A stretch of DNA of 64,000 nt from Candidatus Poribacteria bacterium (GCA_965215015.1 OZ244042.1:800001-864000); one strand, 5' to 3'; shown: positions 5,468-52,794, counted from the stretch's first letter. Numbers and translations: made by a program. The notes: generated by a model not told the origin, from the sequence alone.

Positions 5468-7099
5468 TTGCCATCAATAAAACTTCGACTCTCTAAAAGG
5501 CAGCTTATTATCCTTTGTGCAATCGTCATCCTCCTGCTCCTGATTATGCTGGTTTATCATCAGACCTCTCTCTGGGAGCCGGGTCAGAGTCTCTTTACTT
5601 TCCTCCCCGATGCACCAATCTGCTATGTAAGTGTGAAGGACCTTGGAAGCTTCATCGAGACCTTTCAACGGAGTGAATTTGGGGTGCAAACGGCCCAGAT
5701 GCCCATCCTTGCAGAGATTCGTAGGGAATTCTGGTGGCGGCGGCTCATGTATCAGAAGCAGCGGTGGGAGTTGGAAATGGGTGGGAAACTCGACCTCAAC
5801 CGGCTGCGAGGATACTTGGGTGAAGAAGCGATCTTGAGTATCTATAAGCGGAACGGTAAAATTTCATTTCTGCTCATCACCGCCCTCGGAGCGCAGCAAA
5901 AACTGGAAATTGTCACACTCACTGCGACAGCATCCATCAACCCTAAATACAAACGGTTGAAAGAGAATTATAGAAAACTGGAAATCAATACTATCACAGG
6001 CTATCCACAAGATTTCAGCTATGCCTTTATTGGCAAGATTGGTCTGTTAGCAACAGATAAATCCTTGATCCAGGATACGGTTGACATCTACGCTGAACAG
6101 AAGCAGAGCTTTACCGCGCTAGCGGCTACGGGAGACTATCTGGGCAAACAGTATGAAACCGCTCGTAACACCATCTATATTAATCCCGCCAAATTTACTG
6201 AAGTTTTTAAGTTTGCCCCATCCCTCAAATCATTATTACAGGGAATCGATGTGTGGACGTTCAGCAATCGCTACGAGGATGGCGTTATCTACTCACAACA
6301 CCGAATGATTAGGAACACCGATTCGCAATCCCGACAATCCCCACGTTTGATAGACGAAAAACTGTTTTCGATGCTTCCCGCAACAACCGCATTTCTGATT
6401 GCAAATAATGATGCAAACTTCACAGGGTTGTGGCAACAGGCGAAAACAAATTTGCCCTTGAAATATCAGGGAAATGAGATTGATTTATCGCGTCATCTTG
6501 AAGCTAGAACTGCGCTGGCATTGTTCCCTCCCCCGGCAGGTGTCCCCGCGTTAGTGCCTTCGGTGCTCCTGATTTGCCCAATTCAGGACCGAGCGAACTT
6601 AGAAGCGGCTTTAACAAAATTTAAGCGGACCAAGATTTCTATCAACGGTAAACCGATCCGATTTCCACCTCCGGTAAAGCATCGAGACATTGAGCTACAA
6701 CCGATACAACTTCAACTTGGTCTCATCTTCGCCCTAAAGGGAGGATATGCGCTTCTCGATAACTACTGGGTCGTCGGCACAACGCTCGGCGGAGTGAAGT
6801 CTGCTATCAACGCCTCCACTGGGCAAGAGGTTGCGCTGGCTGATACGAAAATGCCGGATTACTTACAGCGTCCAAGCCACAGTCATATCCGGATTCAACC
6901 GAGCCTTTTGGTTCCGGAATTGAAACGTCTGCTTCCGATCGCCAGTTTGATGTTTCCACAACAGATTGAGGCAAAACTGATTCGGCGCATAATGGATAAC
7001 CTATCCCCATTGGAAGCACTCGGATTGGTCACCGCCGGCATCAATTTCAACGATGATTTTGTGGAGGCCGAAGTTCAGATCACTTTGGAAGGACAGTAA
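5468..7099 (+). CDS. Hypothetical N-terminally membrane-anchored protein (DUF3352-like)
   Basis: 543 aa; N-terminal hydrophobic helix; two 'LP..' modules ('TFLPDAP', 'SMLPATT'). Confidence 0.5.
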   Translation: MPSIKLRLSKRQLIILCAIVILLLLIMLVYHQTSLWEPGQSLFTFLPDAPICYVSVKDLGSFIETFQRSEFGVQTAQMPILAEIRREFWWRRLMYQKQRWELEMGGKLDLNRLRGYLGEEAILSIYKRNGKISFLLITALGAQQKLEIVTLTATASINPKYKRLKENYRKLEINTITGYPQDFSYAFIGKIGLLATDKSLIQDTVDIYAEQKQSFTALAATGDYLGKQYETARNTIYINPAKFTEVFKFAPSLKSLLQGIDVWTFSNRYEDGVIYSQHRMIRNTDSQSRQSPRLIDEKLFSMLPATTAFLIANNDANFTGLWQQAKTNLPLKYQGNEIDLSRHLEARTALALFPPPAGVPALVPSVLLICPIQDRANLEAALTKFKRTKISINGKPIRFPPPVKHRDIELQPIQLQLGLIFALKGGYALLDNYWVVGTTLGGVKSAINASTGQEVALADTKMPDYLQRPSHSHIRIQPSLLVPELKRLLPIASLMFPQQIEAKLIRRIMDNLSPLEALGLVTAGINFNDDFVEAEVQITLEGQ

Positions 7100-7178
7100 C
7101 TGATACAAGCTGAGGGGGGAGTGGGCATAATTGGAGACGCATTATAGCAGAATTCAGAGGAGGGGACCTGGGTCAATC

Positions 7179-7228
7179 GTAGAGGCTTGGTTCCTACGCC
7201 TGATGGGTTGGGAGACCCAACCCCTACG
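7179..7228. repeat. GTAG-type REP-like palindrome
   Basis: gtagaggcttggttcctacgcctgatgggttgggagacccaacccctacg: GTAG...CTAC ends, internal hairpins. Confidence 0.55.
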
Positions 7229-7323
7229 CATTGAGAGGTATTAAGAGATAAACACATCAAAACCTATTTATGAGCACCCCTCAGCTAAGAGATCTGTCCC
7301 TTGAATTTGACTCAGGAGTTGCT

Positions 7324-8469
7324 ATGGAAAATCAAGAAATCAAAATTATACATGTCGAAAGTGAACTCTACCAATGGGATAAACCACCAATCTGGAACGG
7401 TCTGCATATCTATGACACAGGTAGACTTCATCTGGTGCGAGTGCGGGCGATAAGTGGGGCAGAGGAGGTTGTCGGCTACGGCTTCAATGGAGGCACAGCA
7501 GCGACGCGACCGCTTCAGATGTTCCCAATGTATGTCGACCAGTTCAGACCACAGCTGATAGGAAGATCCCCCATAGATACCGCGTATGTGTCTCAATTGG
7601 CGGATAATTTTAAGATATACGGTCCAGGGGGCTATCACACACAGGTACTGGCTGCAATCAATCAGGCATGTTGGGATATCAAGGGGAAAGTCGCGGGAAA
7701 GTCGGTTCACCAGTTACTAGATGGTCAACAGCGACGGATTCGAGCGTATATTGCGGGTGGATACTACGGTAAAGATAAAGGGCTCGATGAGTTGAGAGAA
7801 GAGATGGATCGTAATGTCAACGAGTTTTTTGCAACCGCCGTCAAGATGAAGATCGGGGACAGAGACGCGGGCCTAGACAATGACATCAAACGGATAGAGG
7901 CGGCGCGGCAGCAGGTTGGACCCGATATTACCTTGATGGTAGATGCCAACTGTGCACTGAGCCTTGAGGGAGCGATGGCTTATCTCCCTGTGCTGAAAGC
8001 AAACGATATCTTCTGGTTTGAAGAGCCGATTCCCAGTCACGATTACCGAGGGCATAAAGAATTGGCTGCAATTGCTAAAGATTACGATGTCCTAATCGCA
8101 ACGGGTGAAAACGGCTACGGGGCTCATCACTTTCAAACGTTGATCGATTATCAGGGAGCAGATGTTTTTAATATTGATGTCGCGATCTTAGCCGGTTACG
8201 AACCTGCCTTAGCGGTGGTGGAAGAATCTGCAACCCATCAGAAGTTGATTGCGCCCCATGGGGCGCAGGAACTTCAGGTGCATATCGCAGCGGCGCGCCA
8301 AAACGGTTTGATGCTTGAATACTATCCGCCTGCCGTGGATCCGCTGAGGGGTGAAATCTTTCTGCCGCAAATGTCATTGGAAAAGGATGGATACGTAACG
8401 GTGCCACAGAAACCGGGAATCGGTTTTGAACCGAACATGGCTCTCCTTGAGCAGCATCGTATCGGATGA
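7324..8469 (+). CDS. Mandelate racemase/muconate lactonizing enzyme family protein
   Basis: 'WDIKGK', 'KMKIG', 'LMVDAN', 'WFEEP', 'TGEN'; AGGAG RBS before ATG 7324. Confidence 0.92.
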   Translation: MENQEIKIIHVESELYQWDKPPIWNGLHIYDTGRLHLVRVRAISGAEEVVGYGFNGGTAATRPLQMFPMYVDQFRPQLIGRSPIDTAYVSQLADNFKIYGPGGYHTQVLAAINQACWDIKGKVAGKSVHQLLDGQQRRIRAYIAGGYYGKDKGLDELREEMDRNVNEFFATAVKMKIGDRDAGLDNDIKRIEAARQQVGPDITLMVDANCALSLEGAMAYLPVLKANDIFWFEEPIPSHDYRGHKELAAIAKDYDVLIATGENGYGAHHFQTLIDYQGADVFNIDVAILAGYEPALAVVEESATHQKLIAPHGAQELQVHIAAARQNGLMLEYYPPAVDPLRGEIFLPQMSLEKDGYVTVPQKPGIGFEPNMALLEQHRIG

Positions 8470-47582: not shown

Positions 47583-48706
<1,124 letters not shown>

Positions 48707-48736
48707 CCCCTACTAAGGATCCTTAACTCGCGTGTG

Positions 48737-51700
48737 TTACTCAGATGCTGTTACAGGTAGCCCGACGAAAAGCCGGCTATCAATATCCGTAAGCGGGTCA
48801 ATTTCCCGGCACGCTGCGGCGCGGGCGAACACGATCCCGGGCTGCTTGGCTCGCATCGCACGCGACAAAACGGTAAACCCTTTTGATTGGCTGCTATTGC
48901 GTAATTCCCACGCAACTCGTTCCAGCTCTAAGTTGAATCGAACAAGCCCTTCCCGTGAGCCAACGCATAGCGTGTAGAGTTCATCAGACGTTAAGCCCTC
49001 GCAATACCCGTTACGAATCACAACCTCTCCGCCTCGGATATCTGACACTGTCCCTCGCGCCCCGACAACACAACCAAGTCGATGAAGTCTGCTCGTAAAG
49101 GAGCGGCTTTTGACTGCGAGGATATGTGCTCCCAAGTTGTTATCAGCAAAGTTTTCGTAAGCGGCAATCCATTCTATAAGTTCTTCCGCGTAAGTGTCCC
49201 ACGCTGTTGCATCGTCAGGGTCCCTAGGAACGGGAGGACTACCATCGCCCCTACTGAGAAACGGACTCATGGATGCCCCCGATTCCTTTACAATTTCGAG
49301 TCCACGCTGCATCAACCGTTCAGCGACTTCAATGGTGCGATCAATTCCCTCGCGTTTGAGGAGTGTTCTTAGCGTATCCGCTAACGAGCGTCGCGTGACC
49401 AAACCATCAGGAATAGCAACCTCCATCCCGACAATTCCTGCGAGTTCATCACGCCCCTCAGGGGTGAGACTCAAACTTGCCAATCCCCATATCGCGTCAT
49501 GCCCTGGGGCTAATGCTGTGCATACATTTGGATCCCGTTTGAGATGTCCAGTGATGGAGAGCCGTTCACTAGCTTCTCGTTGGCCCGCCGCTGTGATGGG
49601 CAGAAAAACCGCCGCTTGGTCGCCATCAAAGTCAGCATTCATTAACTCACAGACGAAAGGGTGAACACGGATGACACGGCCTGGCTGGCGTACCGGATGA
49701 AATGCAACAAAGGAGGTAGGCATATACGCAGGGGCTCGATGCACAATCACCCATGAACGTCCCATCAGCTCATCAAGTGCCTGTGTTGCACCTTGGCTGC
49801 GGCCTCGCACGGCTTTGGCATCACCGAGTTCCTTTGTAAGTTCCGGCCCGAAGAGTGCCCATGCCATCTGTTCTGGAATGCCGACCTGATCGGCGCGTAG
49901 CTCCGCACCCGGGACAATGACGCAGCGCCCACTGAAGAGTGTCCGTGCCTTAAAGCGCATGTCTGCCGGGCTTAGCAGCACGTTGAAGTATTCCGCAAGG
50001 CGCGTTTGGAGTTGCTTGAGGGCTTGGAAGGTCAGGCTTTCCGGTGCATCATTTGCAAACATCCGCTCTGCTCTGGTATTGGCATCGGCAAGTACATGAT
50101 ACTCGGAAATGCCTTCACAGACACCAACTTCATCAATGGTTTGACTATGTAGCCACGGATGGGAGACTGGCCGGGCAAGCTGGAGCGTATTTCCAGTCGG
50201 ACGTACAAATTGGAAAGTCAGTCTGTCACCATCAAAGTTAGCGCAGATACCTGCCGCCGAAAGCTGCTCCCTGAGCTTAGTAAACATCGGCGTCGGTGGA
50301 CTTGCTTGCTCAACTTTCCCTGCTGTAACACGATCGAGAAGTGTCTCCGCATCTACTCGCGTCGCAGCACGGGTATTGAAATGTTCCCGCAAAGTTTCAA
50401 ATGCTGAAGTGTTGCGTAGCGTATAGTATTCGAGTTCACCAAGCCCTTGATGATATATAGGGGCCTCGTGGACGATTGGTTCAGATACCTTGAGCTTATC
50501 AAGCGCGATGTGAACTGTCTTCCCCCAATAAACCCAACCAACTGTACTCGGCCGATTCAGTTTTTTGCCGTTAGCTCCAAACGTGAGGGTTTCCATCCCA
50601 TCTTCAGGCAGCCCTAACTTTTGGAGTAGCTCACGGAGTTGATTGACACTAGGTGCTTGAAATGGCGGCACAATGGCCGTTTCTCCTTCCGTCCGTGCGA
50701 TGCGCCCCACGATTGCTTCACGGATTTGACCAAAGTTCATCCGCCCGTGCAAAGCACCGAAGCTGAAGACAAGCTCTACCGGCGTGCCATCGGCGAGGTG
50801 GGGCATCTCATCGTCAGGGGTGATGCGCGAAATGACCCCTTTCGTGCCGTGACGGTTACTGATCTTATCACCCGGCTCAATAATATAAGGGAAATTCAGA
50901 CGCGTAGCGCACGACTCACTAATCACGATGCCGTCCTCAAAGGTCTCCCCGCCCCAAGAGATAAAAGCGGTCAACAGATTACGTCCACACCAAAAGTAGG
51001 GGACATCAGGCTCGTAACCTGTCTGGACAAGTGCAGGCTCTGGGGAGACAGTCAATCTTGGCATCTCCTTGGAACAGCTAACTGGAGCAGCCTCTGGAGC
51101 AGTAGGCGACAACCACTGACGCATCATGTTCGCCCCCATGAGTACTCGCGATGGATCATTGTGTTCGAGAAAAGGGATTAGTGCTGCAGACAGACCTAGC
51201 GTTGCTTCCTGGCTATCATCCACGATGACCAATTTTTTATCACGAATCTCCGCCCCCCTCGCAACTGTCAGAATTTTGCCGACGTTTGGTCCTTCTGGCG
51301 TTTCAAATGGGCAGGTCCGTCCAAAGTGTCCAGAGGTAAAGACCTGATTCCCCTGTAAAATCCGCACCCTACGTAGATGTGTATGCTTGTCGAGCCAGTT
51401 GGTACTGGAGAGTCTCTGAGCGGTAAATGTGTCACGAAAGAACTCGCGCACCCATCTGTCAATCGGAAGCCACGAGCGAATAAGCGACGTATCCCATTCC
51501 AGATCTGGCGGTGCTTCTCTGATACGCGCTTTGAAGTAATCGTACAGTTGATCGCCCACACACTCAATCTTCGCTTGTTTCAGTTTCACGGTTGAGGCGG
51601 TCGGTACGACAACATAGGGTTCACCATCAAGCGTGAACATACCGTCTACATCAGGCTGCGGAATACCCGTGTATTCGACCTCAACATACCCCTCAGTTGA

Positions 51701-51856
51701 CGCCAGCACAAGTTTCACGCGACAGGTGTACGTACCAATTGGCTCAAAACGATAACCGGCTAGTGGCAGCCGGTCAGCAAGGAGTTCTGGCAATCGTTCT
51801 TTCATCAATCCTTCAAAAGACTGCTTGTGCCAAAATGCAGTAATGTTGTTCGACAT
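48737..51856 (-). CDS. Miniaturised single-chain RNA polymerase-like protein (RpoB-RpoC fusion)
   Basis: Beta motifs in order: 'GRTCPFETPEGPNVG', 'LIPFLEHND', 'MGANMMRQ', 'FEDGIVISE', 'GDKISNRHGTKG', 'GRMNFGQ', 'LGELE'. Then beta-prime motifs: 'FSGRCVI', 'HRAP', 'NADFDGD', 'EGL', 'GSREGL'. AGGAGG RBS. Confidence 0.93.
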   Translation of the reverse strand: MSNNITAFWHKQSFEGLMKERLPELLADRLPLAGYRFEPIGTYTCRVKLVLASTEGYVEVEYTGIPQPDVDGMFTLDGEPYVVVPTASTVKLKQAKIECVGDQLYDYFKARIREAPPDLEWDTSLIRSWLPIDRWVREFFRDTFTAQRLSSTNWLDKHTHLRRVRILQGNQVFTSGHFGRTCPFETPEGPNVGKILTVARGAEIRDKKLVIVDDSQEATLGLSAALIPFLEHNDPSRVLMGANMMRQWLSPTAPEAAPVSCSKEMPRLTVSPEPALVQTGYEPDVPYFWCGRNLLTAFISWGGETFEDGIVISESCATRLNFPYIIEPGDKISNRHGTKGVISRITPDDEMPHLADGTPVELVFSFGALHGRMNFGQIREAIVGRIARTEGETAIVPPFQAPSVNQLRELLQKLGLPEDGMETLTFGANGKKLNRPSTVGWVYWGKTVHIALDKLKVSEPIVHEAPIYHQGLGELEYYTLRNTSAFETLREHFNTRAATRVDAETLLDRVTAGKVEQASPPTPMFTKLREQLSAAGICANFDGDRLTFQFVRPTGNTLQLARPVSHPWLHSQTIDEVGVCEGISEYHVLADANTRAERMFANDAPESLTFQALKQLQTRLAEYFNVLLSPADMRFKARTLFSGRCVIVPGAELRADQVGIPEQMAWALFGPELTKELGDAKAVRGRSQGATQALDELMGRSWVIVHRAPAYMPTSFVAFHPVRQPGRVIRVHPFVCELMNADFDGDQAAVFLPITAAGQREASERLSITGHLKRDPNVCTALAPGHDAIWGLASLSLTPEGRDELAGIVGMEVAIPDGLVTRRSLADTLRTLLKREGIDRTIEVAERLMQRGLEIVKESGASMSPFLSRGDGSPPVPRDPDDATAWDTYAEELIEWIAAYENFADNNLGAHILAVKSRSFTSRLHRLGCVVGARGTVSDIRGGEVVIRNGYCEGLTSDELYTLCVGSREGLVRFNLELERVAWELRNSSQSKGFTVLSRAMRAKQPGIVFARAAACREIDPLTDIDSRLFVGLPVTASE

Positions 51857-51922
51857 GCTATCCTCCTATTTCTTTCGTATTGCGTGTGTGTAGATTGTAA
51901 AACGTCAAATATTGCTACTCGC

Positions 51923-52537
51923 TCACCTTTCCTCTTCTTCCCAGCCGCTTGCGATCTCCTTCCATTCGCGGGCAAGGTGTTTTATGGAATGGTGTAAACG
52001 CGACTTCACTGTGCCTTCTGGAATACCTAGCTCTATGGCGGCTTCTCGCAGTGCCATTTCCCTCTGATATATGAGGTGAAGGACTTCGCGTTTCTCTTGG
52101 GGGAGCTCATCAACAAGCTGCCAGAGCAGCTGAGATTGTTCGGCTTGCTCCACCATCACTTCGGGACCATGTGACGAAACGTCAACCATCCAATCTGGAT
52201 CTGGCAGACGTTCCTCCTCATCGTCGAATTCGTCTGGAGGTATTTCAAGGGGTTCCTGTCGCCGTCGCCGCACGGTGCGCAGATGATTGAGGGCGAGGTT
52301 CGTTGCGATGCGGAAAAGCCAGCCCTTGAACTCGCCTTGACCATTCCACTGTTCAGCACGCGTCCAGACACGTAAAAACACCTCTTGAACCAGATCCTCA
52401 GCAGCACTTTCAACCCGCACGATGCTAAGGATATGCTGACGGACGGGCACACGGTATCGAGCAAAAAGCGTTTCAAAGGCGGCGGCATCGCGCTTTACAG
52501 TCTTGCGAATGAGGGTTTGGTCTGATTGTTCCATCAT
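51923..52537 (-). CDS. ECF (group 4) sigma-70 family sigma factor
   Basis: Region 2 'AEDLVQEVFLRVW', 'WLFRIATNLALNHLR'; region 4 'AAIELGIPEGTVKSRLH'. Confidence 0.95.
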   Translation of the reverse strand: MMEQSDQTLIRKTVKRDAAAFETLFARYRVPVRQHILSIVRVESAAEDLVQEVFLRVWTRAEQWNGQGEFKGWLFRIATNLALNHLRTVRRRRQEPLEIPPDEFDDEEERLPDPDWMVDVSSHGPEVMVEQAEQSQLLWQLVDELPQEKREVLHLIYQREMALREAAIELGIPEGTVKSRLHHSIKHLAREWKEIASGWEEEER

Positions 52538-52554
52538 AAAAGGCTTTCACTGTA

Positions 52555-52582
52555 AATGACACCGTAGGAGGGATAAAAGTTC
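52555..52582 (-). promoter_or_regulatory. Putative ECF-type promoter GAACTT-N16-GTCATT upstream of the sigma gene
   Basis: Minus strand: GAACTT ttatccctcctacggt GTCATT, ending 17 nt before ATG 52537; fits the AAC(-35)/GTC(-10) ECF pattern. Confidence 0.65.
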
Positions 52583-52794
52583 ATTGTCTGAATCAGGATT
52601 CTCAGGATTAGGTTAAATAAAACGCAAAGGCGCGAAGGCACAGAACCGCAAAGAAGATCAGACAAAACTTTGCGTCTCTGCGTTAGATTTTTCATCGAAT
52701 CCCGATTAGGTTTTCGGATTTTGGGTGGCGTGAATGGGTATAAATGTGATAAGATGCACATGTTACTCATCACACAATACATTAGGTTAGGAAC

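What the first reader, a model, noticed from the sequence alone, without database searches (positions are those of the whole stretch)
48737..52582. Two-gene system: ECF sigma factor plus a 1039-aa fused mini beta-beta' RNA polymerase
Seen: one uninterrupted ORF with an RBS carries RpoB motifs in order (aa ~60-540) then RpoC motifs (aa ~555-1035), 66 bp downstream of a co-oriented ECF sigma gene. Established: normal beta plus beta' total about 2700 aa; the Helicobacter/Wolbachia fusions are full length; the housekeeping genes sit beside rplL/rpsL, which are absent here. Single-chain two-barrel RNAPs such as phage YonO are far more divergent from RpoB/RpoC than this protein, which can be aligned by eye. 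No phage, integrase or alpha-subunit gene is nearby. Inference: a second, streamlined RNA polymerase paired with its own sigma, i.e. a private transcription system. I do not know a description of this architecture, but cannot confirm novelty without a search.
Basis: partly seen in the sequence, partly recalled or inferred. Interest (0 to 1): 0.97.

Follow-up and report, generated by a model that had tools for sequence, protein, structure and literature searches.

The report
Sigma-linked single-chain mini RNA polymerase
A sponge-symbiont-type bacterium carries, besides its normal RNA polymerase, a conserved two-gene cassette encoding its own sigma factor and a one-third-size enzyme in which the two catalytic polymerase subunits are trimmed and fused into one chain, apparently an undescribed second transcription machine.

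Summary
Window 48737-51856 (-) is an intact 1039-aa ORF. Its first half aligns to RpoB and its second half to RpoC. It lies 66 nt downstream of a 204-aa ECF sigma gene (51923-52537, -). The genome has full-size rpoB and rpoC 1.3 Mb away. The protein belongs to a deep family of about 1000-aa proteins, all unnamed, found in at least 7 phyla. Catalytic residues are conserved (the DxDGD aspartates in 77-79 of 81 sequences), dN/dS is 0.13-0.18, and AlphaFold gives pLDDT 93. It keeps both catalytic barrels, the clamp helices (the sigma-2 dock), switch 2 and the bridge helix. It lacks the lobes, flap, Zn-binding clamp core, rudder and trigger loop. An orthologous sigma lies directly upstream in 38 of 39 testable loci, often translationally coupled. 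A conserved ECF-type promoter, TGAAC-N14-CGGTGTC, precedes the sigma. Where the polymerase gene was lost, the sigma decays. No other conserved neighbour, mobile-element context or wider regulon was found. Eight literature searches found no description, but one key 2012 review could not be read. Sigma binding to the mini core, its templates and its expression remain untested. Verdict: real, conserved and probably undescribed; a new variant of the two-barrel RNA polymerases.

The parts
52558..52583 (-). Conserved ECF-type promoter TGAAC-N14-CGGTGTC. The -35-like TGAAC is at 52583-52579 and the -10-like CGGTGTC at 52564-52558. The motif starts 46 nt upstream of the sigma start codon.
   Evidence: The same motif at the same spacing lies upstream of the sigma gene in the window and in 23 of 36 related loci examined, across 6 phylum-level groups. 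All 25 instances found with the looser GAAC-N14-CGGT pattern extend to CGGTGTC. It is the only module-specific instance in this genome and its congeners. Its function as a promoter is inferred.
51923..52537 (-). ECF sigma factor gene, 204 aa: sigma-2 and sigma-4 domains, an acidic linker of about 40 aa with a conserved PxWM(I/V)D motif, and an acidic C-terminal tail.
   Evidence: Sigma70_r2 4e-17, r4_2 4.5e-11, TIGR02937 112 bits above cut-off. Orthologs lie upstream of the polymerase gene in 38 of 39 testable loci. Alignment A3. dN/dS 0.10-0.21.
51857..51922 (-). 66-nt spacer between the sigma and polymerase genes, with the ribosome-binding site GGAGGA at 51866-51861.
   Evidence: sequence read directly. 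In 23 of 37 related loci this spacer is 10 nt or less, or the genes overlap.
48737..51856 (-). Single-chain mini beta-beta' gene, 1039 aa plus stop.
   Evidence: AlphaFold pLDDT 93.4, pTM 0.91.
51596..51856 (-). N-terminal family-specific beta-rich domain (aa 1-87), with no detectable sequence match to RpoB. It is a candidate replacement docking surface; that is speculation.
   Evidence: The alignment to RpoB starts at aa 88. One search gives a weak atlas lead to phage proteins, some with Rpb2_1. A separate fold test could not be run.
50222..51595 (-). Beta-derived half (aa 88-545): end of the protrusion, fork (Rpb2_3), the beta double-psi barrel with ED (aa 307-308) and NRHGTKG (aa 334-340; nt 50837-50857), and the C-terminal clamp piece. 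The flap, the external-1 domain and the lobes are deleted.
   Evidence: hhalign to own RpoB 611-1476, with gaps at about 750-820, about 866-960 and 1004-1246.
49958..50110 (-). Clamp-helix hairpin (aa 583-633), equivalent to the beta' coiled-coil that docks sigma region 2.
   Evidence: In one search it aligns to own RpoC 287-340, and the family consensus keeps an N-RL-R-L...AP pattern. One search shows helices 584-601 and 606-627. That this element is the sigma-2 dock is established knowledge of bacterial holoenzymes, not tested here.
49619..49639 (-). Catalytic Mg-binding motif NADFDGD (aa 740-746) in the beta' double-psi barrel.
   Evidence: Conservation: D742 in 77 of 81, D744 in 79 of 81, D746 in 78 of 81.
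48890..48988 (-). Bridge helix (aa 957-989), preceded by the F-loop. Only about 50 residues follow it, so there is no room for a trigger loop.
   Evidence: aligned to own RpoC up to residue 811; 33-residue helix. G954 is invariant in 81 of 81 sequences.
48686..48716 (.). 10-bp inverted repeat (TTAGTAGGGG ... CCCCTACTAA) just past the polymerase stop codon. It overlaps the end of the convergent bioD-like gene and could be a bidirectional terminator.
   Evidence: Read by eye. The terminator scan did not call it because there is no T tract. Weak.

Best explanation
This is an accessory, horizontally spread two-gene operon. It encodes a dedicated ECF sigma factor and a catalytically competent minimal RNA polymerase core.

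The core is one 1039-aa chain made from a trimmed bacterial-type beta fused head-to-tail to a trimmed beta'. It keeps the two double-psi barrels and their catalytic residues, the fork, switch 2, the clamp helices, the F-loop, the bridge helix and the C-terminal clamp closure. It has lost the lobes, flap, Zn-binding clamp core, rudder, most of the pore/funnel region and the trigger loop.

Most likely mechanism:
1. The sigma docks by its region 2 on the retained clamp helices, forming a two-protein holoenzyme.
2. This holoenzyme starts transcription at TGAAC-N14-CGGTGTC promoters, including the operon's own, which gives positive autoregulation.
3. First-round expression may come from the host core using the same sigma.

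Shown here: the architecture, the conservation, the catalytic-site conservation, the sigma linkage, the joint loss and the conserved promoter motif.

Inferred: polymerase activity, sigma binding to the mini core, promoter use, and independence from alpha and omega. Templates other than its own operon are unknown.
For: 1. Both halves are true RpoB and RpoC homologs in the right order.
2. The fold is confident over all 1039 residues (pLDDT 93.4, pTM 0.91). All top 50 PDB neighbours are bacterial or plastid beta chains.
3. The catalytic residues are conserved in 81 diverse members: D742 77, D744 79, D746 78, R335 81, K339 77, D308 75.
4. dN/dS against 7 orthologs is 0.125-0.177 for the polymerase and 0.098-0.205 for the sigma.
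5. The family is deep. The top 120 word-index hits are all about 990-1106 aa. In the exhaustive search of 1.84 billion representatives, about 75 full-length representatives fall to 37% identity before canonical fusions appear at about 260 bits.
6. An orthologous sigma (E 1e-38 to 1e-119) lies immediately upstream on the same strand in 38 of 40 loci. One locus had no upstream DNA, and one has a peptidase gene inserted between the two genes.
7. The sigma stop and polymerase start overlap or lie within 10 nt in 23 of 37 loci.
8. No other conserved neighbour exists.
9. The clamp helices are retained while most peripheral elements are gone.
10. The two genes are lost together. Of 4 near-complete same-genus genomes without the polymerase, one has the sigma with 2 in-frame stops, one has only a fragment, and two have only paralogs at 36% identity or less. 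The flanking genes are intact.
11. The promoter motif is conserved across phyla.
12. The canonical rpoBC is present elsewhere in the genome, so this is an extra enzyme.
Against: 1. The beta flap, the canonical anchor of sigma region 4, is entirely deleted (its role is stated in PMC7824862). It is therefore unclear how -35 recognition would be positioned.
2. The promoter has ordinary ECF geometry, which is what the host core plus this sigma would read. The motif fits the rival reading equally well.
3. No second well-placed promoter copy was found. Strict hits elsewhere are antisense inside ORFs or are shared with genomes that lack the module. With one mismatch allowed there is no enrichment over controls (2 against 1-4).
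5. In 3 of 40 loci the polymerase gene is split by frameshifts (L035, L038, L045). These may be sequencing errors or pseudogenes.
6. The gene is dispensable: it was found in 22 of 121 genomes of the phylum.
7. Loss of the trigger loop predicts slow or altered catalysis. This is an inference from knowledge of RNAP.
Confidence: 0.55

Rival explanations
1. The sigma works only with the host core RNA polymerase, as a dedicated activator of this one operon. The mini polymerase acts without a sigma, as YonO may, on templates that are not defined by this promoter, for example single-stranded or nicked DNA, RNA templates or primer synthesis.
For: The flap, which is the sigma-4 anchor, is absent. The promoter has standard ECF geometry. 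The sigma is an ordinary ECF by sequence, 28-36% identical to many paralogs in the same genomes. Only one cognate promoter is present per genome. Joint loss of the sigma and polymerase is also expected under this reading.
Against: The clamp helices are retained with the canonical N-RL-R-L..AP pattern although most other surface elements were removed. Start and stop overlap tightly in 23 of 37 loci, which is typical of proteins made in fixed proportion to bind each other; that is an inference. The pairing is strict across at least 7 phyla, with no case of the polymerase behind another regulator among 39 testable loci.
Confidence: 0.25
2. The mini beta-beta' is a core-polymerase mimic that sequesters its sigma. 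It would be an anti-sigma by mimicry, sitting in the gene position usually held by an anti-sigma, and it would not synthesise RNA.
For: It occupies the position downstream of an ECF sigma, often translationally coupled. It keeps the sigma-2 docking helices. No anti-sigma gene is nearby. No regulon output is visible.
Against: Conservation is strong at the Mg-binding aspartates, the beta-side basic residues, switch 2, the fork and the bridge helix, and the two-barrel active centre is modelled confidently. None of this would be needed for a decoy. A 1039-aa decoy for a 204-aa sigma with no other visible target is not parsimonious.
Confidence: 0.07
3. It is a domesticated or still selfish remnant of a phage or plasmid transcription module, possibly with a role in conflict such as defence or a backup polymerase when the host enzyme is inhibited. 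This concerns origin and role and is not exclusive of the best explanation.
For: The distribution is patchy: 22 of 121 genomes of the phylum, in 3 of 19 genera, and absent from 4 of 13 other genomes of the same genus. Host phyla are interleaved in the gene tree. The cassette is self-contained and self-promoted. Large phages also carry beta::beta' fusions. The N-terminal domain has a weak atlas lead to phage proteins.
Against: None of the 13 viral-contig relatives is a family member; they are 27-36% identical and 1476-2084 aa long. In the tree the phage fusions form their own group, separate from the mini clade. Among 70 immediate neighbours there are no integrases, transposases or phage genes. 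There is no PADLOC hit for the polymerase. Flanking genes are ordinary metabolic genes.
Confidence: 0.12
4. It is an assembly chimera or a decaying pseudogene.
For: None was found. Read-level verification could not be done.
Against: More than 100 independent full-length homologs share the same architecture, including on closed chromosomes. The ORF is intact, dN/dS is 0.13-0.18, and the fold is confident across the fusion junction.
Confidence: 0.01

Closest known systems
Canonical bacterial RNA polymerase beta (RpoB) and beta' (RpoC)
   Same: Sequence homology is clear (E 2e-54 and 2e-32 to this genome's own subunits). It shares both double-psi barrels, NADFDGD, the fork, switch 2, the clamp helices, the F-loop and the bridge helix. 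The top 50 structural neighbours are bacterial or plastid beta chains.
   Different: It is one chain of 1039 aa, against 1706 + 1414 aa in this genome. It lacks the lobes and protrusion, the external-1 domain, the flap, the Zn-binding clamp core, the rudder and the trigger loop. It is not next to ribosomal protein genes. It is accessory rather than universal. It forms a separate clade outside all 34 sampled canonical sequences.
Full-length beta-beta' fusions (Helicobacter/Wolbachia type; NCBIfam NF011417, NF007172)
   Same: Beta is followed by beta' in one polypeptide.
   Different: Those are about 2800-2900 aa and are the cell's only, complete enzyme. This protein scores 179 and 161 bits against cut-offs of 4632 and 5372. 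That they are the sole housekeeping enzyme is recalled knowledge.
Yeast killer-plasmid pGKL2 Orf6 (K2ORF6p), a 982-aa Rpb2::Rpb1 fusion
   Same: The order is the same (beta-like then beta'-like), the size is similar, and there is heavy trimming with loss of the lid, rudder and rim helices (PMC2919709 passages; PMC6211774 passages).
   Different: It sits on a eukaryotic cytoplasmic linear plasmid and works with a separate small subunit carrying the beta' C-terminal regions and with a capping enzyme, not with a sigma. It is said to keep the flap-type insert in the beta barrel (PMC7824862). I made no direct sequence comparison.
YonO and other single-chain two-barrel phage RNA polymerases (crAss-like, P23-45 tape-measure-fused)
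   Same: Both barrels are in one chain of about 100 kDa. There is no flap insert and no trigger loop. YonO-like genes also occur in bacterial chromosomes (PMC5467207 passages; PMC7824862).
   Different: Those are highly divergent from cellular subunits and are prophage-borne. None appears among the top 50 PDB neighbours. One tape-measure-like viral model ranks 35th, with 8% identity. No sigma partner is reported in the passages I read.
Phage-encoded beta::beta' fusions on large viral contigs (L087-L099), probably related to the RNAP-encoding Caudovirales of PMC7481178
   Same: They are fusions of cellular-type beta and beta' with recognisable Pfam domains.
   Different: They are 1476-2084 aa and keep Rpb1_1, and in one case Rpb1_3 and Rpb1_5. 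They are 27-36% identical, form a separate clade and sit in phage genomes of 24-210 kb. I did not check those loci for the cognate sigma. Whether they belong to the published group was not tested.
Second rpoB copies in actinomycetes (Nonomuraea) and putative alternate beta' in Beggiatoaceae
   Same: They are precedents for bacteria holding extra polymerase subunit genes (PMC5431353 abstract; PMC4679880 title and abstract).
   Different: Those are single full-length subunit paralogs that swap into the normal multi-subunit core. They are not a fused minimal enzyme with its own sigma.

Membership tests
Bacterial RpoB (TIGR02013 equivalog) | Full-length match above the curated cut-off (801 bits) | tested here: not met
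   177.7 bits in 4 stretches. The genome's real rpoB scores 1747 bits.
Bacterial RpoC (TIGR02386 equivalog) | Full-length match above the curated cut-off (963.5 bits) | tested here: not met
   93.3 bits over aa 638-798 only. The genome's real rpoC scores 1643 bits.
Two-barrel (double-psi beta-barrel) RNA polymerase superfamily | A beta'-type barrel with the DxDGD metal-binding triad | tested here: met
   NADFDGD at aa 740-746. The three Asp are conserved in 77, 79 and 78 of 81 sequences. Rpb1_2 scores 2e-18.
Two-barrel (double-psi beta-barrel) RNA polymerase superfamily | A beta-type barrel supplying conserved basic residues | tested here: met
   NRHGTKG at aa 334-340. R335 is conserved in 81 of 81 and K339 in 77 of 81. 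Rpb2_6 scores 8e-40.
Cellular-type multisubunit RNAP large subunits | Flap (SBHM insert in the beta barrel) that binds sigma or TFIIB | tested here: not met
   hhalign leaves own RpoB 1004-1246 unmatched. Only 26 residues lie between ED307-308 and NRHGTKG334. The definition of the feature is from PMC7824862.
Cellular-type multisubunit RNAP large subunits | Trigger loop after the bridge helix | tested here: not met
   The alignment to RpoC ends at residue 811 of 1414. Only about 50 residues follow the bridge helix. There is no Rpb1_5 Pfam hit.
Cellular-type multisubunit RNAP large subunits | Clamp helices (sigma region 2 docking site) | tested here: met
   aa 583-633 align to RpoC 287-340 and form a helical hairpin at 584-627. 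Binding itself was not tested.
Cellular-type multisubunit RNAP | Assembly with an alpha dimer and omega | not testable with these tools
   No alpha or omega gene is linked. Whether the host alpha or omega binds is unknown.
Full-length beta-beta' fusion (NF011417 / NF007172) | A complete fused protein of about 2800 aa above the cut-off | tested here: not met
   179.4 and 160.9 bits against cut-offs of 4632 and 5372.
YonO-like single-chain RNAP | Both barrels in one chain, with no flap insert | tested here: met
YonO-like single-chain RNAP | Only remote similarity to cellular subunits; phage or prophage context | tested here: not met
   Homology to RpoB and RpoC is strong. There are no phage genes among the neighbours and no family member on viral contigs.
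ECF (group 4) sigma-70 family, for the partner protein | Sigma-2 and sigma-4 domains only, with a match above the ECF superfamily cut-off | tested here: met
   Sigma70_r2 4e-17, r4_2 4.5e-11. TIGR02937 scores 112.2 bits against 42.9.
ECF sigma with cognate anti-sigma | A co-transcribed anti-sigma gene | tested here: not met
   The downstream gene is the polymerase. No other conserved neighbour exists.
Known anti-phage defence systems (PADLOC-DB v2) | A match to a defence-system protein model | tested here: not met
   There is no hit for the polymerase. The sigma has only a weak HTH-level hit at E 2e-4.

The most novel reading that the evidence does not exclude
Bacteria of at least seven phyla carry a second, autonomous, sigma-programmed RNA polymerase made of only two proteins: one 115-kDa chain plus one ECF sigma. 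It would be the smallest sigma-dependent member of the multisubunit polymerase lineage. It would work without alpha, omega, flap or trigger loop. It would therefore be blind to most host regulators and inhibitors that act through those elements.
Probability: 0.4. Interest if true: 0.95.

Novelty: new variant of a known kind. Interest (0 to 1): 0.86.

Why it matters
Textbooks hold that a bacterium has one RNA polymerase core that is shared among sigma factors. The known exceptions are single-subunit paralogs or highly divergent prophage enzymes.

A conserved, chromosomal, cellular-type core cut to about one third of the normal mass and tied to its own sigma would be significant in three ways:
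1. It is a natural minimal definition of what a sigma-type polymerase needs. It makes testable whether the flap, trigger loop, Zn-binding clamp core, alpha and omega are dispensable for promoter-specific initiation.
2. It is a possible second transcription channel that would be insensitive to regulators and inhibitors acting on the missing parts. This is an inference, not something tested.
3. It is a compact two-gene orthogonal transcription module of obvious interest to synthetic biology.

It also bears on how polymerase subunits fuse and shrink during evolution, alongside the killer-plasmid and phage cases.

Tried and rejected
**Complex prediction.** I submitted polymerase aa 270-1039 with the full sigma, both as alignments (collected). 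The verdict was 'no answer': score 0.30 against a mark of 0.32, and the controls were not run. This is neither for nor against binding. The full-length pair exceeds the 1000-residue limit, so the N-terminal 269 residues were left out.

**N-terminal domain fold.** I built an alignment of aa 1-145 (A5; cleaned as A6) and submitted it. The atlas search of aa 1-95 gave only weak leads (0.90-0.92).

**Regulon search.** Three approaches found nothing:
- The bare GAAC-N14-CGGT pattern is not enriched at spacing 14: 229 hits against 194-260 at other spacings.
- The strict 12-base motif has 3 other hits in this genome, all inside ORFs on the other strand. These recur as orthologous sites in congeners without the module.
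- Allowing one mismatch and requiring an intergenic, upstream position gives 2 hits against 1-4 for controls.

My gene mask for that last test was a crude ORF-length heuristic. A weaker or different target motif is therefore not excluded.

**Conserved neighbours.** All-against-all clustering of flank ORFs gave only the sigma, the polymerase and overlapping-frame shadows of them. A GFO/IDH/MocA cluster in 10 loci proved to be a common family, seen in 4 of 70 immediate neighbours. The Pfam tally of those 70 neighbours was heterogeneous.

**The 82-aa ORF at 52534-52782 (-)**, which overlaps the sigma start, has no Pfam hit and covers the promoter region. I treat it as spurious.

**Defence and phage libraries.** There is no PADLOC hit for the polymerase. 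The PHROG hits are generic phage RNAP-subunit families.

**Literature.** Eight counted searches and passages from PMC2919709, PMC7826278, PMC6211774, PMC5467207, PMC7281927, PMC7481178 and PMC7824862 contained no sigma-linked bacterial mini beta-beta'. Iyer and Aravind 2012 (J Struct Biol 179:299; PMC3769190) is not held and could contain it. The ECF reclassification paper (PMC7826278) has no mention in its main text, but its supplements, which list the genomic contexts of ECF groups, are closed and may bear on this.

**Rifampicin-pocket comparison.** I considered this by eye but did not pursue it, because the alignment in that segment was ambiguous.

Full report
**What is there.** The minus strand of the window carries an intact 1039-aa ORF at 48737-51856 and, 66 nt upstream of it, a 204-aa ORF at 51923-52537. 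The spacer holds a GGAGGA ribosome-binding site. The small protein is an ordinary-looking ECF sigma, with Sigma70_r2 and r4_2 domains and a TIGR02937 score above cut-off. The large protein carries Rpb2 domain 3, Rpb2 domain 6 and Rpb1 domain 2, in that order. It matches rpoB, rpoC and fused rpoBC models only in pieces and far below their cut-offs. Against solved structures it hits bacterial beta chains (2e-43) with aa 130-540 and beta' chains (2e-22) with aa 638-840.

**It is an extra enzyme.** The genome is a single 5.94-Mb contig, 98% complete. It has a canonical rpoB (1747 bits; 1706-aa ORF) and rpoC (1643 bits; 1414-aa ORF) side by side at 2.19-2.20 Mb. The window lies at 0.80-0.86 Mb.

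**What was kept and what was cut.** I aligned the family profile (81 sequences) to this genome's own subunits and read the result against their Pfam coordinates.
- Residues 1-87 match nothing.
- Residues 88 to about 540 align to RpoB 611-1476 (probability 100, E 2e-54).
- Three RpoB segments are skipped: about 750-820 (external-1 domain), about 866-960, and 1004-1246 (the whole flap). RpoB 1-610, which holds the lobe and most of the protrusion, has no counterpart.
- Residues 583-976 align to RpoC 287-811 (probability 99.9, E 2e-32). This region includes the clamp-helix hairpin, a shortened rudder region (a 22-residue gap), switch 2, the barrel with NADFDGD, cut-down pore and funnel parts, the F-loop and the bridge helix.
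- RpoC 1-286 (the Zn-binding clamp core) has no aligned counterpart, and neither does anything after about residue 830 (trigger loop, jaw). Only about 50 residues follow the bridge helix.
- By eye, those last 50 residues resemble the conserved beta' C-terminal segment. That is my reading, not a tool result.

AlphaFold2 with the 81-sequence alignment gives a confident single globule: mean pLDDT 93.4, pTM 0.91 and no segment below 50. Foldseek against the PDB returns only bacterial and plastid beta chains in the top 50 (E down to 3e-23). Against viral models the matches are weaker, to multisubunit virus polymerase subunits. One tape-measure-type single-chain enzyme ranks 35th.

**It is a real, selected family.**
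- The word-index search returned 2308 hits. The best 120 are all 990-1106 aa, carry the same domains, are 50-98% identical and are all called 'hypothetical protein' or left unnamed.
- The exhaustive search of 1.84 billion cluster representatives lists about 75 full-length representatives of about 945-1101 aa, down to 37% identity, plus fragments. Canonical fused enzymes of 1948 and 2309 aa appear only at about 260 bits.
- The Mg-binding aspartates are conserved in 77, 79 and 78 of 81 sequences. The beta-side R335 is conserved in 81, K339 in 77 and D308 in 75.
- Nei-Gojobori dN/dS against seven orthologs is 0.125-0.177 for the polymerase and 0.098-0.205 for the sigma.
- NCBIfam and Pfam have no model for the fused family.

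**The sigma linkage.** A scan of one genome per species returned 40 family loci:

| Group | Loci |
|---|---|
| Candidatus Poribacteria | 9 |
| Chloroflexota | 13 |
| Planctomycetota | 6 |
| Armatimonadota | 5 |
| Latescibacterota | 4 |
| Myxococcota | 1 |
| Gemmatimonadota | 1 |
| Unclassified | 1 |

In 38 of these loci a clear ortholog of the window's sigma (E 1e-38 to 1e-119) lies immediately upstream on the same strand. One locus had only 52 bp of upstream DNA. One (L020) has an S9 peptidase gene inserted between the two genes. The sigma stop and polymerase start overlap or lie within 10 nt in 23 of 37 loci, are 11-50 nt apart in 5, and are more than 50 nt apart in 9. Three loci (L035, L038, L045) have the polymerase in pieces; these may be sequencing errors or decay.

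Nothing else is conserved around the pair. Clustering of flank ORFs gave only the two genes and their shadow frames. The downstream neighbour is usually convergent. A Pfam tally of 70 immediate neighbours is heterogeneous, with the top family, PhyH, in 6 of 70, and it contains no integrase, transposase or phage gene. In the window the neighbours are a BioD-like ATPase, an MFS transporter, a GFO/IDH/MocA oxidoreductase and other metabolic genes.

**A natural loss experiment.** In the phylum the gene was found in 22 of 121 genomes, in 3 of 19 genera. Four near-complete genomes of the window's own genus lack it. In those four:
- the sigma ortholog is a pseudogene with two in-frame stops in G051 (84% identity);
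- it is a fragment covering residues 105-190 in G085;
- it is absent in G091 and G101, where the best hits are paralogs at 36% and 32%.

A control genome that has the polymerase keeps an intact 86% ortholog. In G051 and G085 the flanking genes are intact at 88-94% identity. The polymerase gene has been replaced by the same 1581-nt segment, 95% identical between the two genomes. That segment carries a 342-aa ORF that looks nucleotidyltransferase-like by eye. So the sigma is not maintained without the polymerase. The two genes are functionally interdependent, and the sigma has no independent regulon worth keeping.

**Promoter.** Upstream of the sigma start the Poribacteria loci share a long conserved block. 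Its core, TGAAC-N14-CGGTGTC, recurs at the same spacing upstream of the sigma in the window and in 23 of 36 other loci, across six phylum-level groups. I searched only for GAAC-N14-CGGT, yet all 25 instances extend to the longer form. Chance expectation for the 8-base pattern is about 0.005 per 320-nt region. Four Latescibacterota and Gemmatimonadota loci share a different ECF-like motif, and nine loci showed neither. The motif has typical ECF -35/-10 character; that judgement rests on recalled knowledge of ECF promoters. It is probably the autoregulated promoter.

It appears to be the only one. The bare pattern is not enriched genome-wide at this spacing. The three other strict hits lie antisense inside ORFs and recur as orthologous sites in congeners that lack the module. 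Allowing one mismatch gives no excess over controls.

**Relationships.** I built a tree on 307 columns of the shared beta and beta' barrel blocks (77 rows, IQ-TREE quick, LG+G4). It separates the mini family (36 rows, SH-aLRT 100), canonical bacterial enzymes (34 rows, 99) and phage fusions (7 rows, 99). The tree is unrooted and the tool warns of long branches. Inside the mini clade the host phyla are interleaved: Poribacteria appear in two places, Armatimonadota in two and Planctomycetota in three. This fits horizontal transfer. Viral contigs hold no family member. They do hold larger beta::beta' fusions of 1476-2084 aa at 27-36% identity. The protein atlas likewise shows two bacterial clusters of about 1000-aa proteins (135 and 73 members) next to many fused clusters of 1.2-1.8 kaa.

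**How it most likely works.** The conserved active centre and purifying selection argue for a working polymerase, which makes a decoy unlikely. The strict, often translationally coupled pairing, the joint loss, and the selective retention of the clamp helices, which dock sigma region 2 in all bacterial holoenzymes (established knowledge), argue that the sigma binds the mini core. I therefore favour a two-protein holoenzyme that reads TGAAC-N14-CGGTGTC, with confidence 0.55.

The main difficulty is that the flap is gone, and the flap normally holds sigma region 4. The family-specific N-terminal domain is a candidate substitute, but this could not be tested. The chief rival (0.25) is that the sigma merely drives the operon through the host core and the mini enzyme works sigma-free on other templates. 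Nothing computed here separates these two readings. The complex prediction gave no verdict and is listed only under things tried.

**Novelty.** Reviews of non-canonical two-barrel polymerases that I could read list the following, and none mentions a bacterial sigma-linked mini fusion:
- killer-plasmid Orf6, baculovirus, phiKZ-type and YonO-like enzymes (PMC2919709, passages);
- cellular, killer-plasmid, RdRP/YonO/transposon and PolD members (PMC7824862, passages).

A 2018 study calls the Orf6 beta::beta' fusion unknown in any other polymerase (PMC6211774, passages). The main text of the ECF reclassification has no mention of polymerase subunits (PMC7826278). Its supplements are closed and may list such a context. 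Iyer and Aravind 2012 could not be read.

Within these limits the system appears undescribed. I rate it a new variant of a known kind. It is not categorically new, because single-chain and fused two-barrel polymerases are known.

Noticed in passing
L087-L099 (viral contigs), e.g. L088:3799-8496, L087:3628-8058, L093:4186-10440: Viral contigs of 24-210 kb encode single ORFs of 1476-2084 aa that fuse cellular-type beta and beta' domains. L088 has a weak intein-like hit inside it, and a separate ORF follows that may be the rest of beta'. They form their own clade, apart from both the mini family and the cellular enzymes.
   Followed up: partly
L100 (G051:C1:5429000-5440000) about 5764-7344 and L101 (G085:C1:864000-875000) about 5801-7381: In two congeners the mini polymerase gene is replaced by the same 1581-nt segment (95% identical). 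It carries a 342-aa ORF with a nucleotidyltransferase-like GS...DID motif, read by eye. The orphaned sigma next to it is a pseudogene in one genome and a fragment in the other.
   Followed up: partly
L020:5233-7638: One Poribacteria lineage has an 801-aa S9 prolyl-oligopeptidase-family gene inserted between the sigma and the polymerase gene. Its close relative L021 does not.
   Followed up: partly
Own genome (outside the window) at 2805131, 3637633, 4851281, 5691231: A 48-nt sequence beginning TGTGAACCTCACGCC and ending GATTTTAGTGGATGAAACCCAG occurs four times, nearly identically. It is probably the end of a repeated or mobile element.
   Followed up: no
L030, L031, L033 (Latescibacterota) and L040 (Gemmatimonadota), 30-145 nt upstream of the sigma start as I called it: These loci lack the TGAAC-N14-CGGTGTC motif. 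Instead they share a nearly identical block, GGTGGAATTGGTCGAG...GGCGTTAGGCTCATG, which looks like a GGAAT-N16-GCGTTAG ECF-type promoter. The near-identity across two phylum labels may reflect recent transfer or mis-binning.
   Followed up: no
L007, L009, L012, between the sigma and the polymerase gene: The spacer is 200-263 nt in these close relatives but 66 nt in the window and 73 nt in L008. This suggests a small inserted element.
   Followed up: no
L001:1477-6597 (own canonical rpoB): The housekeeping RpoB of this genome is unusually long, at 1706 aa. The Rpb2_1 match is stretched over residues 27-666 and there is a long insertion inside the flap region.
   Followed up: no
window 52534-52782 (-): An 82-aa ORF overlaps the sigma start by 4 bp. 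It has no family match and covers the conserved promoter and the divergent intergenic region, so it is probably not a gene.
   Followed up: partly
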